A stretch of DNA of 64,000 nt from Arcticibacter sp. (GTDB taxonomy: Bacteria; Bacteroidota; Bacteroidia; Sphingobacteriales; Sphingobacteriaceae). Made by a program: the position numbers and the translations under genes. The stretch lies in the NCBI RefSeq assembly GCF_045629565.1, contig NZ_JAZQRL010000007.1, forward strand, positions 88 through 64,087, written 5' to 3'. Of the stretch, positions 5,904 to 9,716 are shown one piece after another (within the stretch, counting starts at the first letter, position 1; each line of letters begins with the position of its first letter). The notes below the pieces were generated by a model, which saw only the letters and a list, made by a program, of their open reading frames with translations, ran no database searches and was not told where the DNA came from.

Positions 5904-7247
5904 TTATACGCCAACGTAGGTGAGTGGACTGATTTTTCTGATTTCATCCTTCACGTCTTCTGAAACGTTGAGGGTAGACACGAAAGCGGATATGGTTGAA
6001 GCGCTCACCTTCTCATTGGTCCGCGTGAGCTCCTTTAATGCCTCGTACGGATTGGGATAGCCCTCTCTCCTTAAAATGGTTTGTATGGCTTCTGCGGCCA
6101 CCGCCCAGTTCTCATTCAGATGTCCTTCAATTACGGTTCTGTTGAGGAGTAACTTTCCAAGCCCCTTTAAGGTCGACTTCACGGCTATCAGCGAGTGTGC
6201 TATCGGTACACCTACGTTTCTTAACACTGTAGAATCGGTCAGGTCTCTTTGTAGGCGGGATACCGGCAGTTTGGCAGCAAGGTGTTCAAAAAGTGCGTTC
6301 GCTATTCCCAGGTTTCCTTCAGAATTTTCAAAGTCAATCGGATTTACCTTATGTGGCATGGCTGATGAACCAACTTCTCCGGCTTTGATTTTCTGGCCGA
6401 AATAGTTCATCATGATATACATCCACATGTCGCGGTCGAGATCCAAAATAATGTTATTGATCCGCTTAAATACGTCGCAATGTGCAGCGAAGTTATCGTA
6501 ATGTTCTATTTGTGTAGTGTACTGTGAGCGATTTAAGTGGAGTTGGTTGTTAACAAAGTTATTCGCGAATTGCTTCCAGTCGATTGAAGGGTAAGCGATG
6601 TGATGTGCATTGAAATTACCCGTCGCGCCACCGAACTTCGCGGAAAATGGGATTACTTTTAACTGCTCGAGTTGAGCCTCCAGACGTTCCACAAAGACGT
6701 AGATCTCTTTACCCAGGCGGGTGGGTGAAGCAGGCTGTCCATGTGTGTGCGCCAGCATCGGGATTTCTGCCCAGTCTGAAGCCAGTCCCTTTAACTTATC
6801 GATCAGCTCGGTAATAGCAGGCAGGTAAGATTCTTCGACAGCAAGCTTTAGCGAATAGGGTATTGCCGTATTGTTGATGTCTTGAGATGTAAGTCCGAAA
6901 TGTATAAATTCCTTATATTCTTGTAAATTCAGACTGTCAAAAACTTCCTTTATGAAATATTCAACCGCCTTAACGTCATGGTTGGTAACACGTTCTATCT
7001 CCTTAACACGTAAAGCATCCTCATCCCTGAAATTAATATAGATAGACCTTAGCGCGTCAAAATGCCCGGCTGGAAAGTTTTCAAGCTGGGGAAGAGGAAT
7101 AGATGCCAGTGCGATGAAGTACTCTATTTCCACATAGACCCTGAACTTGATGAGCGCGGCCTCTGAAAAATATGCTGATAGTTCGCGGGTGGAATTTGCA
7201 TATCGCCCATCAACAGGAGATATGGCATTTAGTGAAGATAGTATCAT
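5904..7247 (-). CDS. purB: adenylosuccinate lyase
   Basis: SPVDGRY, TNHDVKAVEY, GSSAMPHKVNPIDFENSEGN signature; TAACTTTG -7 box at 7262-7269. Confidence 0.95.
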   Translation of the reverse strand: MILSSLNAISPVDGRYANSTRELSAYFSEAALIKFRVYVEIEYFIALASIPLPQLENFPAGHFDALRSIYINFRDEDALRVKEIERVTNHDVKAVEYFIKEVFDSLNLQEYKEFIHFGLTSQDINNTAIPYSLKLAVEESYLPAITELIDKLKGLASDWAEIPMLAHTHGQPASPTRLGKEIYVFVERLEAQLEQLKVIPFSAKFGGATGNFNAHHIAYPSIDWKQFANNFVNNQLHLNRSQYTTQIEHYDNFAAHCDVFKRINNIILDLDRDMWMYIMMNYFGQKIKAGEVGSSAMPHKVNPIDFENSEGNLGIANALFEHLAAKLPVSRLQRDLTDSTVLRNVGVPIAHSLIAVKSTLKGLGKLLLNRTVIEGHLNENWAVAAEAIQTILRREGYPNPYEALKELTRTNEKVSASTISAFVSTLNVSEDVKDEIRKISPLTYVGV

Positions 7248-7323: not shown

Positions 7324-7354
7324 AAAACCTGTAACTTGATAAGCTACAGGTTTT
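7324..7354 (-). terminator. intrinsic terminator of the small-lipoprotein pair
   Basis: AAAACCTGTA...TACAGGTTTT stem; A-run on + strand gives a U-tract on - strand. Confidence 0.65.
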
Positions 7355-7397
7355 AAAACATGTCCTTCTGTAAGGAACAGAAAGTGTGTTTTGAATA

Positions 7398-7607
7398 TTA
7401 GTTCTGAATTGAATCAACAGCAGCAGAAGAAGCTGAATCGATAGTGTCAGTTTTAGCGTCAGCAGAAGCGTCGATTGAATCGATGCTAGCATCTGCAGTT
7501 GAATCGATTGAATCTGCAGTGTTGTTTTCAGTTTGAGAAGAGTTACAAGCTGATGCAGAAAGAGTAATAGCTAAAGCTAAAAAGCCGAATTTAAATAGAT
7601 TTTTCAT
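7398..7607 (-). CDS. small acidic lipoprotein A (69 aa), D-S/T-rich
   Basis: Signal peptide II MKNLFKFGFLALAITLSASA-C; paralogous to 7705-7899. Confidence 0.8.
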   Translation of the reverse strand: MKNLFKFGFLALAITLSASACNSSQTENNTADSIDSTADASIDSIDASADAKTDTIDSASSAAVDSIQN

Positions 7608-7629
7608 TTTATTTTTTAATAGTTTATTG

Positions 7630-7657
7630 TTAATACCGGTATTTCTAATAGGTAACC
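7630..7657 (-). promoter_or_regulatory. putative ECF-sigma promoter GGTTAC-N14-GGTATTAA
   Basis: Minus strand reads GGTTAC ctattagaaatacc GGTATTAA, 22 nt before lipoprotein A start. Confidence 0.6.
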
Positions 7658-7704
7658 TTGACTTGCGAAAAAAATCAAAAATATTTCTCGCTTTTTCTCA
7701 AAGA

Positions 7705-7899
7705 TTATTGAGCTACAGTTGAATCAACAACTACAGTTGAATCAAGAACAGCAGTAGTGTCAGATAGCATAGTAGTGTCAGTTGTAGCAGAATCTACCAA
7801 AGTAGAGTCAGCACCACTTTCAGTTTTAGTAGAGTTGCAAGCAGATGCTGTTAAAGTGATAGCCAATGCTAAGAAACCGAATTTTACTAGATTTTTCAT
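7705..7899 (-). CDS. small acidic lipoprotein B (64 aa), D-S/T-rich
   Basis: Start reassigned to MKNLVKFGFLALAITLTASA-C (ATG 7899) by alignment with paralog A. Confidence 0.8.
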   Translation of the reverse strand: MKNLVKFGFLALAITLTASACNSTKTESGADSTLVDSATTDTTMLSDTTAVLDSTVVVDSTVAQ

Positions 7900-7936
7900 T
7901 TTAATGTCTTTATGATTTTTTACAAACAATTTACTG

Positions 7937-7964
7937 TTAATACCAGGTCTCCCGAAAAGTAACC
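7937..7964 (-). promoter_or_regulatory. putative ECF-sigma promoter GGTTAC-N14-GGTATTAA
   Basis: Minus strand reads GGTTAC ttttcgggagacct GGTATTAA upstream of lipoprotein B. Confidence 0.6.
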
Positions 7965-8008: not shown

Positions 8009-8036
8009 GGTTACAAATTTCTTAAAAAGGTATAAA
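8009..8036 (+). promoter_or_regulatory. putative autoregulatory ECF promoter GGTTAC-N14-GGTATAAA
   Basis: Plus strand GGTTAC aaatttcttaaaaa GGTATAAA immediately upstream of the ECF sigma gene. Confidence 0.6.
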
Positions 8037-8047
8037 TAGTGAGTAGA

Positions 8048-8605
8048 ATGATAAAAAGGTCAGAGCCAGCGGATAATGAGGTGATCCTCGGAATTCTGAA
8101 TGGTTCTAAGGGCATACTGGAAGAAATATATAAAGCGTATTTTCCGATGATTTTGCAGCTTGTGGTAATGAATAACGGGAATGACGATGATGCGAAGGAT
8201 GTTTTCCAGGAATCTGTTATCGTTCTTTATGATAAAGTCAAGAAGGGTGATTTTGTGCTGAATAGTAAGCTCAAAACCTTTATCTACTCAGTATGCAGGA
8301 GGCTATGGTTAAAAAGGCTTTCGCAGAAAAGTCGTAATACGGGTAATATTACAGACTTCGAGGATGTGCTTACTGTGGAAGATGACATCGAAAGGCATGA
8401 AGAGAAAGACCGACAGTTTACCATGATGGAAGCAGCTTTAGGACGACTCGGAGAGCCTTGTAAGACGATTATTGAGGATTACTATATAAACAACAGATCT
8501 ATGCAGGAGATCTGTGAGAAATTTGGTTACACAAATGCTGATAATGCAAAGAATCAGAAATACAAATGCCTGCAACGCTTAAAGAAACTATTCTTTCAAG
8601 TATAA
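8048..8605 (+). CDS. ECF-type RNA polymerase sigma factor
   Basis: DAKDVFQE (region 2), LKTFIYSVCRRLW, region-4 SMQEICEKFGYTNADNAKNQKYKC; ATG 8048 preferred over GTG 8039 because of the promoter position. Confidence 0.9.
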   Translation: MIKRSEPADNEVILGILNGSKGILEEIYKAYFPMILQLVVMNNGNDDDAKDVFQESVIVLYDKVKKGDFVLNSKLKTFIYSVCRRLWLKRLSQKSRNTGNITDFEDVLTVEDDIERHEEKDRQFTMMEAALGRLGEPCKTIIEDYYINNRSMQEICEKFGYTNADNAKNQKYKCLQRLKKLFFQV

Positions 8606-8618
8606 AGGAGTTTAGATT

Positions 8619-9716
8619 ATGGATATTACAGAACAAATTGAAGCATATTTACGGAACGAAATGTCGGCTGATGAGGCTGCTGCTTTCGAACGATTAAGAG
8701 CTTCTGATCCCGATCTGGACCAGAAGGTGGTATTGCATGAGCAGTTTATCAAACAGATGAAGGATTACGGAGAGCATCGTAAGCTGATTTCTGACATGAA
8801 TGCCATTCATGCAGGTCTTGATATCGAGTCGATCAGAGAAGAGGTGATCCCGTTCGGACTGAAAGTCAGAACGATGTGGAGAAAATACCGGGTTAATGGT
8901 GCTATAGCTGCATCTGTTGCGCTTATGGCAGTCTTTACTACGTTATTTTCCACGGGCTATTTCAACAAGGCTACTTCCATACGTTCGGATTATAACGCAC
9001 TTCGGAGAGAATGGAGCAGAGATATTAATACAAAGGTTAAGCGCTCTCAGAACGAGATATTGCAAAATATTAATGCCACCACCAAAGAGCCTTCGGCTCC
9101 ATCTCTATTTGGAGGTACAGGCTTTGCGTTGAACACAGAAGGATATGTAGTGACTAATTATCATGTAGTCAAAGGGGCCGACTCTGTTTATATCGAGGAT
9201 AATGATGGAAACTCATTTAAAACAACAACAGTTTATGTTCACCCGTCTTACGATATTGCTGTACTGAAAGTGACTGACGCTTCTTTCAAATTACCAAAAT
9301 CCCTTCCTTATTCGTTTAAGAAATCAGGTGCGGACTTGGGACTGGATGTTTATACGTTGGGCTATCCTAAAGACGACATAACCTACACCCGCGGATACTT
9401 AAGTTCCAAGAGTGGGTATGCAGGGGATACGCTTGCTTACCAAGTTGATATTTCCGTGAATGGAGGAAATAGTGGAGGTCCGCTGCTCGATAGTAAAGGA
9501 AATGTAGTTGGAGTAGTAAATGCAAAACAAGATCGTACTGATGGTGCATCTTTCGCAATTAAGTCTGCTTACCTCCTTGAAGCTATTGATGCTATTCCGA
9601 AAGATTCCTTAGGACGAAAAGTTTCAGTCAATACTAAGAACACGTTAGCGTCGTTAAATAGAAGTGAGCAGATCAAAAAGATAGGCAATTACATTTACAT
9701 GGTTAAGGTTTATTGA
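8619..9716 (+). CDS. anti-sigma-like N-domain + TM + S1/HtrA-like serine protease (no PDZ)
   Basis: N-term EQIEAYLRNEMS..EAAAFE helix; TM GAIAASVALMAVFTTLF; catalytic TNYHVV, YDIAVL, GNSGGP. Confidence 0.8.
   Translation: MDITEQIEAYLRNEMSADEAAAFERLRASDPDLDQKVVLHEQFIKQMKDYGEHRKLISDMNAIHAGLDIESIREEVIPFGLKVRTMWRKYRVNGAIAASVALMAVFTTLFSTGYFNKATSIRSDYNALRREWSRDINTKVKRSQNEILQNINATTKEPSAPSLFGGTGFALNTEGYVVTNYHVVKGADSVYIEDNDGNSFKTTTVYVHPSYDIAVLKVTDASFKLPKSLPYSFKKSGADLGLDVYTLGYPKDDITYTRGYLSSKSGYAGDTLAYQVDISVNGGNSGGPLLDSKGNVVGVVNAKQDRTDGASFAIKSAYLLEAIDAIPKDSLGRKVSVNTKNTLASLNRSEQIKKIGNYIYMVKVY

What the first reader, a model, noticed from the sequence alone, without database searches (positions are those of the whole stretch)
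7398..7899. Tandem mini-lipoproteins saturated with the Bacteroidetes O-glycosylation sequon
Seen: after near-identical signal peptides II (MKNL.KFGFLALAITL.ASA-C), the ~45-residue mature peptides each carry six D-(S/T)-(A/I/T) triplets. A has DSI, DST, DSI, DTI, DSA, DSI; B has DST, DSA, DTT, DTT, DST, DST. In B every Asp lies in such a triplet, although the mature sequences of A and B have otherwise diverged. Established: D-(S/T)-(A/I/L/V/M/T) is the phylum-wide O-glycosylation motif defined in Bacteroides fragilis. Inference: these are lipid-anchored, mucin-like glycopeptides (envelope spacers, glycan carriers, or signals for the adjacent protease).
Basis: partly seen in the sequence, partly recalled or inferred. 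Interest (0 to 1): 0.7.

Follow-up and report, generated by a model that had tools for sequence, protein, structure and literature searches.

The report
Sequon-packed mini-lipoproteins under ECF sigma control
Two tiny tandem lipoprotein genes of a soil Arcticibacter encode peptides made almost entirely of the Bacteroidota O-glycosylation motif; they are divergent members of the PG1828 lipoprotein family and appear to be the main output of the neighbouring stress sigma factor.

Summary
Two minus-strand genes (A 7398-7607, 69 aa; B 7705-7899, 64 aa) share a lipoprotein signal peptide. Each mature peptide has six D-(S/T)-(A/I/L/V/M/T) triplets, against about 1.3-1.5 expected by shuffling (P about 1e-4).

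In 125 unique homologs, 84% of all Asp lie in the sequon (5.75 per peptide against 1.0 expected). Glu almost never substitutes, and the third-position residues match published glycoproteomes.

- **Family:** the genes are divergent, sub-threshold members of NCBIfam NF050142, "PG1828 family lipoprotein". Its founder, from Porphyromonas gingivalis, is a proven triacylated lipoprotein with four predicted but never observed glycosites.
- **Promoter:** each gene carries GGTTAC-N14-GGTAT(T/A)AA. So does the divergent ECF sigma gene, whose operon also encodes an anti-sigma fused to an HtrA-like protease. The motif occurs three times in 64 kb and is conserved across Sphingobacteriaceae.
- **Expression:** soil metatranscriptome contigs show short monocistronic transcripts.
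- **Structure:** A has amphipathic-helix periodicity; B is predicted to be disordered.

Glycosylation itself, localisation and function remain untested. Verdict: a real feature and a new member of a known but functionally obscure family, of moderate interest.

The parts
7398..7607 (-). Gene A: 69-aa PG1828-family mini-lipoprotein. It has a 20-aa signal peptide plus lipobox Cys21. The mature peptide is acidic (10 D/E, 1 K), has 6 sequons and shows amphipathic alpha-helical periodicity.
   Evidence: ORF and translation. NF050142 32.6 bits, below the cutoff of 50. 48 homologs. Hydrophobic moment at 100 degrees z=2.9. AlphaFold2 helix 30-68 at low pLDDT, 53-61. A transcript-sized metatranscriptome contig covers 7390-7617.
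7705..7899 (-). Gene B: 64-aa PG1828-family mini-lipoprotein, rich in T and V. All 6 Asp lie in sequons. Periodicity is about 5.5 residues and the mature part is predicted to be disordered.
   Evidence: NF050142 38.7 bits. Pairwise match to the P. gulae PG1828 ortholog across the mature N-terminus, CNS.KTE.ADST.DSAT, E=3e-6. AlphaFold2 predicts coil, pLDDT about 50. Metatranscriptome contigs cover 7638-7921 and 7638-7902.
7630..7657 (-). ECF-type promoter of gene A: GGTTAC-N14-GGTATTAA.
   Evidence: One of only 3 matches in 64 kb, against 0.02 expected. The motif lies upstream of 77 of 90 unique family genes in other genomes with fixed spacing. The RNA contig ends 13 nt downstream of it.
7937..7964 (-). 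ECF-type promoter of gene B: GGTTAC-N14-GGTATTAA.
   Evidence: The RNA contig's 5' end at 7921 lies 16 nt downstream of the motif.
8009..8036 (+). The same promoter motif (GGTTAC-N14-GGTATAAA) directly upstream of the ECF sigma gene, i.e. the presumed autoregulatory promoter.
   Evidence: Present in 46 of 46 unique sigma upstream regions. The extended pattern is found in at least 119 Sphingobacteriaceae-type genomes.
8039..8605 (+). ECF sigma factor, 188 aa from GTG 8039 or 185 aa from ATG 8048.
   Evidence: Pfam Sigma70_r2 26.5 bits. TIGR02937 sigma70-ECF 72 bits, above the cutoff of 42.9. Syntenic with the mini-lipoprotein genes in most loci.
8619..9716 (+). Probable anti-sigma factor fused to a periplasmic HtrA/DegS-like serine protease without a PDZ domain. 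It has an N-terminal 60-90 aa domain and one hydrophobic segment around residues 95-115.
   Evidence: Trypsin_2 5e-25; zf-HC2 only E=0.012. MarP/DegP/DegS-type matches. Catalytic H182/D212/S285 are invariant in homologs. The gene starts 14 nt after the sigma stop codon.
7324..7354 (-). Intrinsic terminator downstream of gene A: a 14-bp stem followed by a T-run.

Best explanation
A and B are divergent paralogous members of the PG1828 family of Bacteroidota mini-lipoproteins.

**Processing.** They are exported by Sec, cut by signal peptidase II at the invariant Cys, and lipidated. This is inferred from the lipobox and from the triacylated founding member.

**The peptide.** The 44-49-residue mature peptide consists of a short conserved linker (C-N-S-x-K/Q-T-E) followed by little more than a string of D-(S/T)-hydrophobic sequons. 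The most likely role of these sequons is to be O-glycosylated in the periplasm by the phylum's general system. This would give a lipid-anchored peptide carrying up to six glycans, so more sugar than protein by mass (inferred).

**Location.** The genes lack the Bacteroidota surface-export signal, so the products most likely face the periplasm (inferred).

**Regulation.** Each gene has its own ECF-type promoter, identical in architecture to the promoter of the divergent sigma / anti-sigma-HtrA-protease operon. A and B are therefore the conserved and apparently principal regulon of that autoregulated envelope-signalling sigma factor. This is shown as motif sharing and conservation; sigma dependence itself is inferred.

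**Working model.** A periplasmic signal inactivates or cleaves the protease-type anti-sigma. The sigma is released and raises its own level and that of the mini-lipoproteins. These coat the periplasmic face of a membrane with acidic, glycan-bearing, partly helical (A) or disordered (B) peptides.

**My sub-confidences.**

| Claim | Confidence |
|---|---|
| Lipoprotein | 0.9 |
| Member of the ECF regulon | 0.8 |
| Glycosylated at several sequons | 0.6 |
| Stress-induced periplasmic glyco-lipopeptide as the function | 0.35 |
For: **Sequon enrichment**
- In A and B against shuffles, and 45-50 times the density of the other ORFs in the window.
- In 125 unique homologs, 719 of 858 Asp lie in the sequon. 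The reversed-motif control gives 158 and E[ST]x gives 23.
- Distant cluster representatives keep only the D[ST]x repeats while the spacers change from acidic to Lys-rich.

**Lipoprotein status and family**
- Lipobox in 125 of 125.
- NF050142 hits: A 32.6 and B 38.7 bits; syntenic Pedobacter orthologs 52.8-72.2; P. gulae PG1828 86.9. B matches PG1828 across the mature N-terminus at E=3e-6.
- PG1828 is triacylated.

**O-glycosylation machinery.** It is functional in Sphingobacteriaceae. Sequons are 'generally nearly fully substituted', and engineered motifs become glycosylated.

**Location.** The surface-export signal is absent in 125 of 125. Glycosylation is concentrated on periplasm-facing proteins.

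**Promoter**
- 3 exact sites in 64 kb against 0.02 expected, all in this locus.
- Conserved before 77 of 90 family genes, including loci far from any sigma gene, and before 46 of 46 sigma genes.
- In 1.5 Mb of fetched loci, almost every one of the 269 sites precedes one of these two gene types.

**Expression.** Transcript-sized metatranscriptome contigs begin 13-16 nt after the motif. A Pedobacter homolog is covered more deeply than its sigma operon in two of the three runs where the two are covered by separate contigs.
Against: - No family member has ever been shown to carry a glycan. PG1828 gave 0 spectral matches in the P. gingivalis glycoproteome.
- Sequons only 3 residues apart (DSIDST) may not all be usable.
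- A and 84 of 125 relatives have alpha-helical amphipathic periodicity, so part of the hydrophobic-D-S-hydrophobic pattern could be structural.
- The presence of the glycosylation locus in this genome was not checked, because only 64 kb is available.
- Sigma dependence rests on motif sharing alone.
- In Sphingobacterium species the motif is conserved, but no sigma gene lies within 4 kb. I could not find out whether the sigma is encoded elsewhere.
- In Porphyromonas the family gene has a housekeeping-type TAnnTTTG box instead. ECF control is therefore lineage-specific and not a family property.
- The homologs are not phylogenetically independent, so the pooled counts overstate the statistical weight.
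Confidence: 0.55

Rival explanations
1. Structural coiled-coil lipoproteins of the Lpp/OprI 'alanine-zipper' kind. In this reading the hydrophobic-D-S-hydrophobic pattern is a heptad feature of an amphipathic helix that oligomerises. The peptides act as membrane-wall or membrane-membrane struts, and glycosylation is absent or incidental.
For: - Sequon spacings of 3, 7, 8, 11 and 15 dominate in A-type members.
- The hydrophobic moment peaks at 95-105 degrees in 84 of 125 members; A has z=2.9.
- AlphaFold2 draws one long helix for A.
- Pedobacter orthologs (VDSAAKT repeats) give weak hits to NF040598, Lpp/OprI alanine-zipper: 19.9-25.4 bits against a cutoff of 43.
- The size is similar to Lpp.
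Against: - B and many relatives have 5-6-residue spacing, a beta-branched T/V-rich composition and no alpha moment, and are predicted to be coil. They nevertheless keep the same number of sequons.
- 88% of Asp are followed by Ser/Thr, and Glu almost never replaces Asp. That is much tighter than coiled-coil rules require.
- The helix prediction has low confidence, pLDDT 53-61.
- There is no conserved C-terminal Lys: A ends in N, B in Q, and only 24 of 125 end in K.
- A and B do not hit NF040598.
- This rival is compatible with glycosylation rather than excluding it.
Confidence: 0.15
2. Regulatory partners of the sigma system rather than effectors. In this reading the mini-lipoproteins are ligands, decoy substrates or feedback inhibitors of the anti-sigma's periplasmic HtrA-like domain, comparable to CpxP or RseB. 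They might report whether lipoprotein processing or O-glycosylation is working.
For: - Tight, conserved divergent synteny with the sigma/anti-sigma-protease operon, and a shared promoter.
- The catalytic triad of the protease is conserved.
- The signal peptide is unusually conserved (MKNLFKFGF at least 96% identical) despite synonymous codon variation. This implies a constraint beyond export.
- The regulon seems to consist of little else.
Against: - There is no direct evidence of interaction.
- Family members occur at loci without an adjacent sigma, and in Porphyromonas without this sigma at all. The family's basic function therefore cannot depend on this protease.
- The C-termini are polar (N, Q, H, K), unlike DegS-activating peptides.
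- The protease has no PDZ domain.
Confidence: 0.15
3. Unmodified acidic peptides that bind divalent cations or buffer charge at the membrane. In this reading the Asp-Ser/Thr pairs serve as metal ligands.
For: A has 10 acidic residues and 1 basic residue in 49; B has 7 and 1 in 44. Asp/Ser/Thr-rich repeats are common in cation-binding proteins (my own knowledge).
Against: - Distant family members balance the Asp with many Lys (KKDTTKKDTT) and still keep D[ST]x.
- The strict requirement for a hydrophobic, Thr or Ala residue at the third position, and the exclusion of Glu, are not explained by metal binding.
Confidence: 0.07
4. An entericidin-like toxin/antidote pair of small tandem lipoproteins, as the UniRef name 'Entericidin' on some homologs suggests.
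For: The genes are tandem, small, paralogous lipoprotein genes. UniRef labels two homologs 'Entericidin'.
Against: - No Pfam or NCBIfam entericidin hit at E<=0.1.
- Both peptides are strongly acidic.
- Copy number varies from 1 to 3 and single copies are common, which does not fit an obligatory pair.
- The name looks like an automatic label.
Confidence: 0.02

Closest known systems
PG1828 (PGN_1739) lipoprotein of Porphyromonas gingivalis; NCBIfam NF050142 'PG1828 family lipoprotein'
   Same: - Precursor of 60-75 aa with a lipobox Cys.
- Mature N-terminus C-N-S-x-(A)-K-T-E-E.
- Ala/Ser/Thr/Asp-rich remainder with repeated D-S/T-hydrophobic triplets. The P. gulae ortholog has DST, DSA, DTA and DSA.
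- Syntenic Pedobacter orthologs of A and B pass the family cutoff.
- PG1828 is experimentally triacylated and is a TLR2 agonist.
   Different: - A and B score below the curated cutoff: 32.6 and 38.7 against 50.
- They have 6 sequons rather than 4.
- They have a different, hyper-conserved signal peptide (MKNLFKFGFLALA against MKKFVAFAAVIAA).
- They are tandemly duplicated.
- They are driven by an ECF-type promoter, whereas the Porphyromonas gene has a TAnnTTTG housekeeping-type box.
- The function of PG1828 in the bacterium is unknown.
Substrates of the general O-glycosylation system of Bacteroidota (D-(S/T)-(A/I/L/V/M/T) sequon)
   Same: The proteins are exported and carry the exact sequon. 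Asp cannot be replaced by Glu, and the third-position spectrum (T, V, I, A, L, S, M) is as in the glycoproteomes.
   Different: Typical substrates are folded proteins with one to a few sites. Here the sequon makes up about 40% of the mature peptide. No glycan has been demonstrated on this family.
Braun's lipoprotein Lpp / OprI alanine-zipper lipoproteins
   Same: They are small lipoproteins of similar length. A-type members have heptad-like amphipathic periodicity and hydrophobic-D-x-hydrophobic motifs. Some orthologs give weak NF040598 hits.
   Different: A and B give no significant HMM hit. There is no conserved C-terminal Lys for wall attachment. B-type members are not helical. The genes sit under an alternative sigma promoter rather than a constitutive one.
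sigmaE-RseA-DegS and other ECF sigma/anti-sigma envelope-stress modules
   Same: There is an ECF sigma with a downstream membrane-spanning partner, an autoregulatory promoter shared with target genes, and an HtrA/DegS-type periplasmic protease domain in the pathway.
   Different: The protease domain is fused to the putative anti-sigma itself and lacks a PDZ domain. The conserved regulon appears to be just the sigma operon and the mini-lipoproteins. I could not assign the sigma to a published ECF group.
Eukaryotic mucin domains
   Same: They share a high density of potential O-glycosylation sites in a low-complexity Ser/Thr-rich peptide. B is predicted to be disordered.
   Different: Here the sites are sequon-defined rather than Pro/Thr/Ser clusters. 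The peptide is only about 45 residues and is lipid-anchored. A-type members have helix periodicity. The resemblance is analogous, not homologous.

Membership tests
PG1828 family lipoprotein (NCBIfam NF050142) | Whole-protein HMM score at or above the curated cutoff of 50 bits | tested here: not met
   A scores 32.6 bits (E=1e-7) and B 38.7 bits (E=1.2e-9). Syntenic orthologs in Pedobacter score 52.8, 65.6 and 72.2, S. psychroaquaticum 51.2, and P. gulae PG1828 86.9. A and B are therefore divergent relatives of members, not members by the curated rule.
PG1828 family lipoprotein (NCBIfam NF050142) | Small precursor (about 60-75 aa) with a signal peptidase II signal and lipobox Cys | tested here: met
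   A is 69 aa and B 64 aa. A PROSITE-type lipobox is present in 125 of 125 relatives.
PG1828 family lipoprotein (NCBIfam NF050142) | Sequence similarity that extends into the mature peptide, not only the signal peptide | tested here: met
   B against the P. gulae PG1828 ortholog: 14 of 20 identical over CNS.KTE.ADST.DSAT, E=3e-6.
PG1828 family lipoprotein (NCBIfam NF050142) | N-terminal triacylated cysteine | not testable with these tools
   Known only for PG1828 itself, from the literature.
Bacteroidota general O-glycosylation substrate | Protein leaves the cytoplasm | tested here: met
   A predicted lipoprotein signal peptide. This is prediction only.
Bacteroidota general O-glycosylation substrate | D-(S/T)-(A/I/L/V/M/T) sequon present and conserved | tested here: met
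   6 sequons in each protein, P about 1e-4. 84% of Asp in 125 homologs lie in the sequon.
Bacteroidota general O-glycosylation substrate | The organism encodes the glycosylation machinery | not tested
   Only 64 kb of this genome is available. For the family Sphingobacteriaceae there is functional evidence from Pedobacter heparinus.
Bacteroidota general O-glycosylation substrate | Glycan attached to the Ser/Thr | not testable with these tools
   No published observation exists for any family member. PG1828 had 0 spectral matches and 4 predicted sites.
ECF sigma regulon member | The neighbouring regulator is an ECF sigma factor | tested here: met
   TIGR02937 72 bits against a cutoff of 42.9; Sigma70_r2 26.5 against 24.
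ECF sigma regulon member | The target promoter matches the sigma gene's own (autoregulatory) promoter | tested here: met
   GGTTAC-N14-GGTAT(T/A)AA occurs 3 times in the window against 0.02 expected. It is conserved before 77 of 90 family genes and 46 of 46 sigma genes.
ECF sigma regulon member | The downstream gene is an anti-sigma factor | tested here: inconclusive
   zf-HC2 reaches only E=0.012, 16.1 bits against a cutoff of 22.2. The position, the single hydrophobic segment and the conserved N-terminal domain fit an anti-sigma.
ECF sigma regulon member | Transcription depends on the sigma | not testable with these tools
   There is only indirect support. RNA contigs start 13-16 nt after the motif.
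Lpp/OprI alanine-zipper lipoprotein (NF040598) | HMM score at or above 43 bits | tested here: not met
   No hit for A or B at E<=0.1. Pedobacter orthologs score 19.9-25.4 bits.
Lpp/OprI alanine-zipper lipoprotein (NF040598) | Heptad or amphipathic helical periodicity | tested here: inconclusive
   A: yes, z=2.9. B: no. AlphaFold2 gives a low-confidence helix for A and coil for B.
Lpp/OprI alanine-zipper lipoprotein (NF040598) | C-terminal Lys for peptidoglycan linkage | tested here: not met
   A ends in Asn and B in Gln. Only 24 of 125 relatives end in Lys.
Entericidin EcnA/B | Match to the entericidin family model | tested here: not met
   No Pfam or NCBIfam hit. The name occurs only as a UniRef label.
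Surface-exposed Bacteroidota lipoprotein (LES-dependent) | C-X-K-(D/E)2 or an equivalent acidic cluster at +3 to +6 | tested here: not met
   0 of 125 have it; the rule is taken. The signal has not been defined in Sphingobacteriaceae.

The most novel reading that the evidence does not exclude
The sigma factor, the anti-sigma with its fused HtrA-like protease, and the sequon-only lipoproteins may form a surveillance circuit for envelope protein O-glycosylation or lipoprotein maturation.

In this reading the mini-lipoproteins are dedicated reporter substrates. Their glycosylation or processing state is read by the protease domain and sets sigma activity. The hyper-conserved signal peptide would be part of that read-out.
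Probability: 0.1. Interest if true: 0.85.

Novelty: new member of a known kind. Interest (0 to 1): 0.5.

Why it matters
- The purpose of the phylum-wide O-glycosylation system of Bacteroidota is still unclear. A natural family of about 45-residue lipopeptides that consist almost only of sequons would be the simplest native substrate available for studying the unknown oligosaccharyltransferase, site spacing rules and the function of the glycans.
- The finding gives a testable hypothesis for PG1828. This immunologically important P. gingivalis lipoprotein co-purifies with LPS, and its bacterial role is unknown.
- It defines a compact, easily assayed ECF sigma regulon with an unusual anti-sigma-protease fusion in Sphingobacteriaceae.

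Tried and rejected
- **Pfam.** It gave nothing for A or B except a spurious 'New_glue' hit, 13.9 bits. Rfam gave no match in the locus or anywhere in the window.
- **RNA data for this organism.** None exist. Runs flagged 'RNA?' for S. spiritivorum turned out to be genome-like contigs of uniform depth and were uninformative.
- **A link to P. gingivalis SigH.** PG1827/PGN_1740 is adjacent by locus number to PG1828/PGN_1739. I fetched the P. gulae locus using a published primer. The two genes are convergent, the sigma has no detectable similarity to the window's sigma, and the lipoprotein gene has a housekeeping-type -7 box. I judge the adjacency coincidental.
- **Assigning the sigma to a published ECF group.** The main text of the reclassification paper does not mention protease-fused anti-sigmas, and its supplements are not held.
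- **Locating the sigma ortholog in true Sphingobacterium species.** This remains unresolved.
- **Original PG1828 biochemistry papers.** Hashimoto 2004, Asai 2005 and Makimura 2006 are not held.
- **AlphaFold2 models.** Both are of low confidence and were not used for fold searches.
Full report
**Source and anatomy.** The window comes from an Arcticibacter (Sphingobacteriaceae). The protease gene next to the finding is 96% identical at protein level to that of A. pallidicorallinus. The finding consists of two minus-strand genes:
- A, 7398-7607, 69 aa.
- B, 7705-7899, 64 aa.

The genes lie between purB (5904-7247) and a divergent operon. That operon encodes an ECF sigma factor (8039/8048-8605) and a 365-aa protein (8619-9716). 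The 365-aa protein has a weak N-terminal anti-sigma (zf-HC2) match, one hydrophobic segment and a Trypsin_2/HtrA-like domain. A strong intrinsic terminator follows gene A.

The two signal peptides differ at 2 of 21 positions and end in a lipobox Cys.
- A has six D[ST][AILVMT] triplets among nine Asp. B has six among six.
- Shuffling each mature peptide gives means of 1.26 and 1.46 sequons, with P = 1.6e-4 and 6e-5 for reaching six.
- Sequon density is 12-14 per 100 residues, against 0.27 in the 46 long ORFs of the window.

- A word-indexed search found 48 homologs of 59-72 aa.
- A genome scan found 218 confirmed loci, almost all in Sphingobacteriaceae.
- An exhaustive profile search found 272 cluster representatives, reaching Mucilaginibacter, Chitinophaga and Ferruginibacter.
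- In 125 unique proteins, 719 of 858 Asp (84%) sit in the sequon. The mean is 5.75 sequons per peptide against 1.0 expected. The reversed motif occurs 158 times, and E[ST][AILVMT] only 23 times although Glu makes up 5.8% of residues.
- After D[ST], 95% of third-position residues fall in AILVMT, and 98% in T, V, I, A, L, S, M, which is the set reported from glycoproteomes.
- In distant members the spacers change from acidic to Lys-rich (for example KKDTTKKDTTKKK), yet the D[ST]x units persist.
- Selection therefore acts on the triplet itself. Caveat: these sequences are related, so the pooled counts are not independent events.

**What the proteins are.** NCBIfam NF050142, 'PG1828 family lipoprotein', is the only family that matches.

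| Protein | NF050142 score (cutoff 50 bits) |
|---|---|
| A | 32.6 |
| B | 38.7 |
| Syntenic Pedobacter orthologs | 52.8-72.2 |
| Porphyromonas gulae ortholog of PG1828 | 86.9 |

- I fetched the P. gulae locus with a published primer sequence. Its product reads MKKFVAFAAVIAAVSFASCNSQAKTEEAADSTAMDSATLVEEAAPVVDTAAMQIDSAAMKAEEAATEQAAQ and has four sequons.
- B aligns with it across the mature N-terminus at E=3e-6.
- PG1828 of P. gingivalis is an experimentally triacylated lipoprotein. It contaminates LPS preparations and activates TLR2.
- In the P. gingivalis O-glycoproteome it is listed as a 7.1-kDa non-localised lipoprotein with 4 predicted sites, 0 identified sites and 0 spectral matches. Glycosylation of the family has therefore been neither seen nor excluded.
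- A and B are thus divergent members of a named family whose function is unknown. Other database names for homologs ('Entericidin', 'ABC-type glycerol-3-phosphate transport system substrate-binding protein') are not backed by any model hit.

**Structure.**
- A-type peptides have significant alpha-helical amphipathic periodicity. A has z=2.9 at 100 degrees, and 84 of 125 relatives peak at 95-105 degrees.
- AlphaFold2 draws a helix over residues 30-68 of A, but at pLDDT 53-61.
- B has a period of about 5.5 residues and no alpha moment, and is modelled as coil at pLDDT about 50.
- Both types keep about six sequons. 'Mucin-like' therefore suits B; A may be a glycosylated amphipathic helix.
- None of the 125 proteins has the Bacteroidota surface-export signal C-X-K-(D/E)2.
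- In P. gingivalis, glycosylation is concentrated on periplasm-facing proteins and avoided on abundant surface proteins. A periplasmic orientation is therefore the better guess.

**New finding: a shared ECF-type promoter.**
- The motif GGTTAC-N14-GGTAT(T/A)AA occurs exactly three times in the 64-kb window, against 0.02 expected. The sites lie upstream of A (7630-7657), of B (7937-7964) and, on the other strand, of the sigma gene (8009-8036).
- In other genomes the motif (consensus GGGTTACCTTTT-N10-GTATTAA) precedes 77 of 90 unique family genes with nearly invariant spacing. This includes copies far from any sigma gene and the Sphingobacterium genes next to purB.
- The version TATCATTGGGTTAC-N15-GTATWAA precedes 46 of 46 unique sigma genes. 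It is found in at least 119 genomes, all of Sphingobacteriaceae type.
- Across 1.5 Mb of fetched loci there are 269 unique sites. About 149 precede a mini-lipoprotein gene, about 104 precede the sigma ortholog, 15 have no ORF called downstream, and one precedes another gene.
- The motif lacks the Bacteroidota housekeeping TAnnTTTG box. That box is present upstream of the Porphyromonas PG1828 gene.
- The simplest reading is an autoregulated ECF sigma whose conserved regulon is its own operon plus these lipoproteins.
- The partner protein has an invariant His-Asp-Ser triad and no PDZ domain.

**Expression.** No RNA-seq exists for this organism. Soil metatranscriptome contigs from close relatives (95-99% identical) nevertheless lie on the window as transcript-sized pieces:
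- 7638-7921 and 7638-7902, covering gene B, from two independent runs with the same 3' end.
- 7390-7617, covering gene A.

Their 5' ends lie 16 and 13 nt downstream of the promoter motif, and the sigma gene is hardly covered. At a Pedobacter locus, gene-sized contigs cover the homolog. In the three runs where the homolog and the sigma operon lie on separate contigs, the homolog is deeper in two (99.6 against 18.9; 365 against 192) and shallower in one (8.5 against 19.4). The intergenic promoter region is uncovered in three of four runs. Contigs are not reads, so this shows transcription and approximate transcript boundaries, not start sites.

**Signal peptide.** MKNLFKFGF is at least 96% conserved across genera, while codons vary synonymously (N3 AAT/AAC, G8 GGT/GGA/GGC, F9 TTC/TTT, A13 GCT/GCA). 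The constraint therefore acts on the peptide, not on the RNA. I have no tested explanation for this.

**Mechanism proposed.**
- Shown: sequon saturation and its conservation; the lipobox; family relationship to PG1828; the shared and conserved promoter; transcription as short units.
- Inferred: lipidation; periplasmic multi-site O-glycosylation; sigma dependence; induction by an envelope signal sensed through the protease-type anti-sigma.
- If six glycans of the size known in the phylum (a nonasaccharide in B. fragilis) were attached, sugar would outweigh peptide roughly two to one. That figure is my estimate.

**Rivals.** These are detailed in the Rival explanations section:
- an Lpp-like coiled coil without functional glycosylation;
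- a regulatory ligand or substrate of the protease;
- an unmodified cation-binding peptide;
- an entericidin-like pair.

**Verdict.** The genes belong to a family that already has a name, so they are a new member of a known kind. The added value is threefold:
- the family's mature peptide is essentially a sequon array;
- in Sphingobacteriaceae it is wired to an ECF sigma / anti-sigma-protease module;
- its signal peptide is unusually constrained.

Noticed in passing
window 8030-8050 (+); the same region in L004-L083: The conserved sequence AGTGAG follows the -10-like box of the sigma promoter by only 3 nt, and its GTG is in frame with the sigma ORF (M-S-...). In Pedobacter orthologs no nearby in-frame ATG exists. 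The sigma mRNA may therefore be leaderless or nearly so, and may start with GUG. In the window an ATG lies at 8048.
   Followed up: partly
window 7545-7607 and 7837-7899 (-); 92 homologous genes in L004-L083: The n-region and first half of the signal peptide (MKNLFKFGF) are at least 96% conserved across genera despite synonymous codon variation, while the mature peptides diverge freely. Signal peptides normally evolve fast, so some constraint beyond export seems to act.
   Followed up: partly
window 8619-9716 (+), residues 188-190 and 270-272: The periplasmic protease domain of the putative anti-sigma carries conserved sequons of its own. D188-S189 are invariant within GADSVY, next to the catalytic His region. 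D270-T271 lie in GDT(L/V/T)AYQ.
   Followed up: no
window 7638 (-): Two independent metatranscriptome assemblies end the gene-B transcript at the same base, 7638. That lies inside the promoter motif of gene A, 67 nt past the B stop codon. No convincing hairpin terminator lies between B and A.
   Followed up: no
L008 (record titled Flavihumibacter soli strain R14): A contig labelled as a Chitinophagaceae genome carries a typical Sphingobacteriaceae-type locus with three tandem family genes. Its sigma is 75% identical to the window's. This may be a mislabelled or contaminated assembly, or horizontal transfer.
   Followed up: no
L005, L006, L007, L034, L038 (second family gene in each): A minority of family genes (13 of 90 unique upstream regions) lack the ECF-type motif. 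Most of these are second copies placed after a terminator-like T-run, so they may use another promoter.
   Followed up: no
L202 1839-2959 (Porphyromonas gulae): The PG1828 ortholog lies tail-to-tail with the SigH (PG1827/PGN_1740) ECF sigma gene. That sigma is unrelated to the window's sigma, and no protease-type anti-sigma follows it.
   Followed up: yes
L049, L053, L057, L058, L065-L070, L077, L081, L083 (Sphingobacterium species): The family gene sits next to purB with the ECF-type promoter intact, but no sigma/anti-sigma pair lies within 4 kb; an acyl-CoA dehydrogenase-like gene is upstream instead. Where, or whether, the cognate sigma is encoded in these genomes was not resolved.
   Followed up: partly
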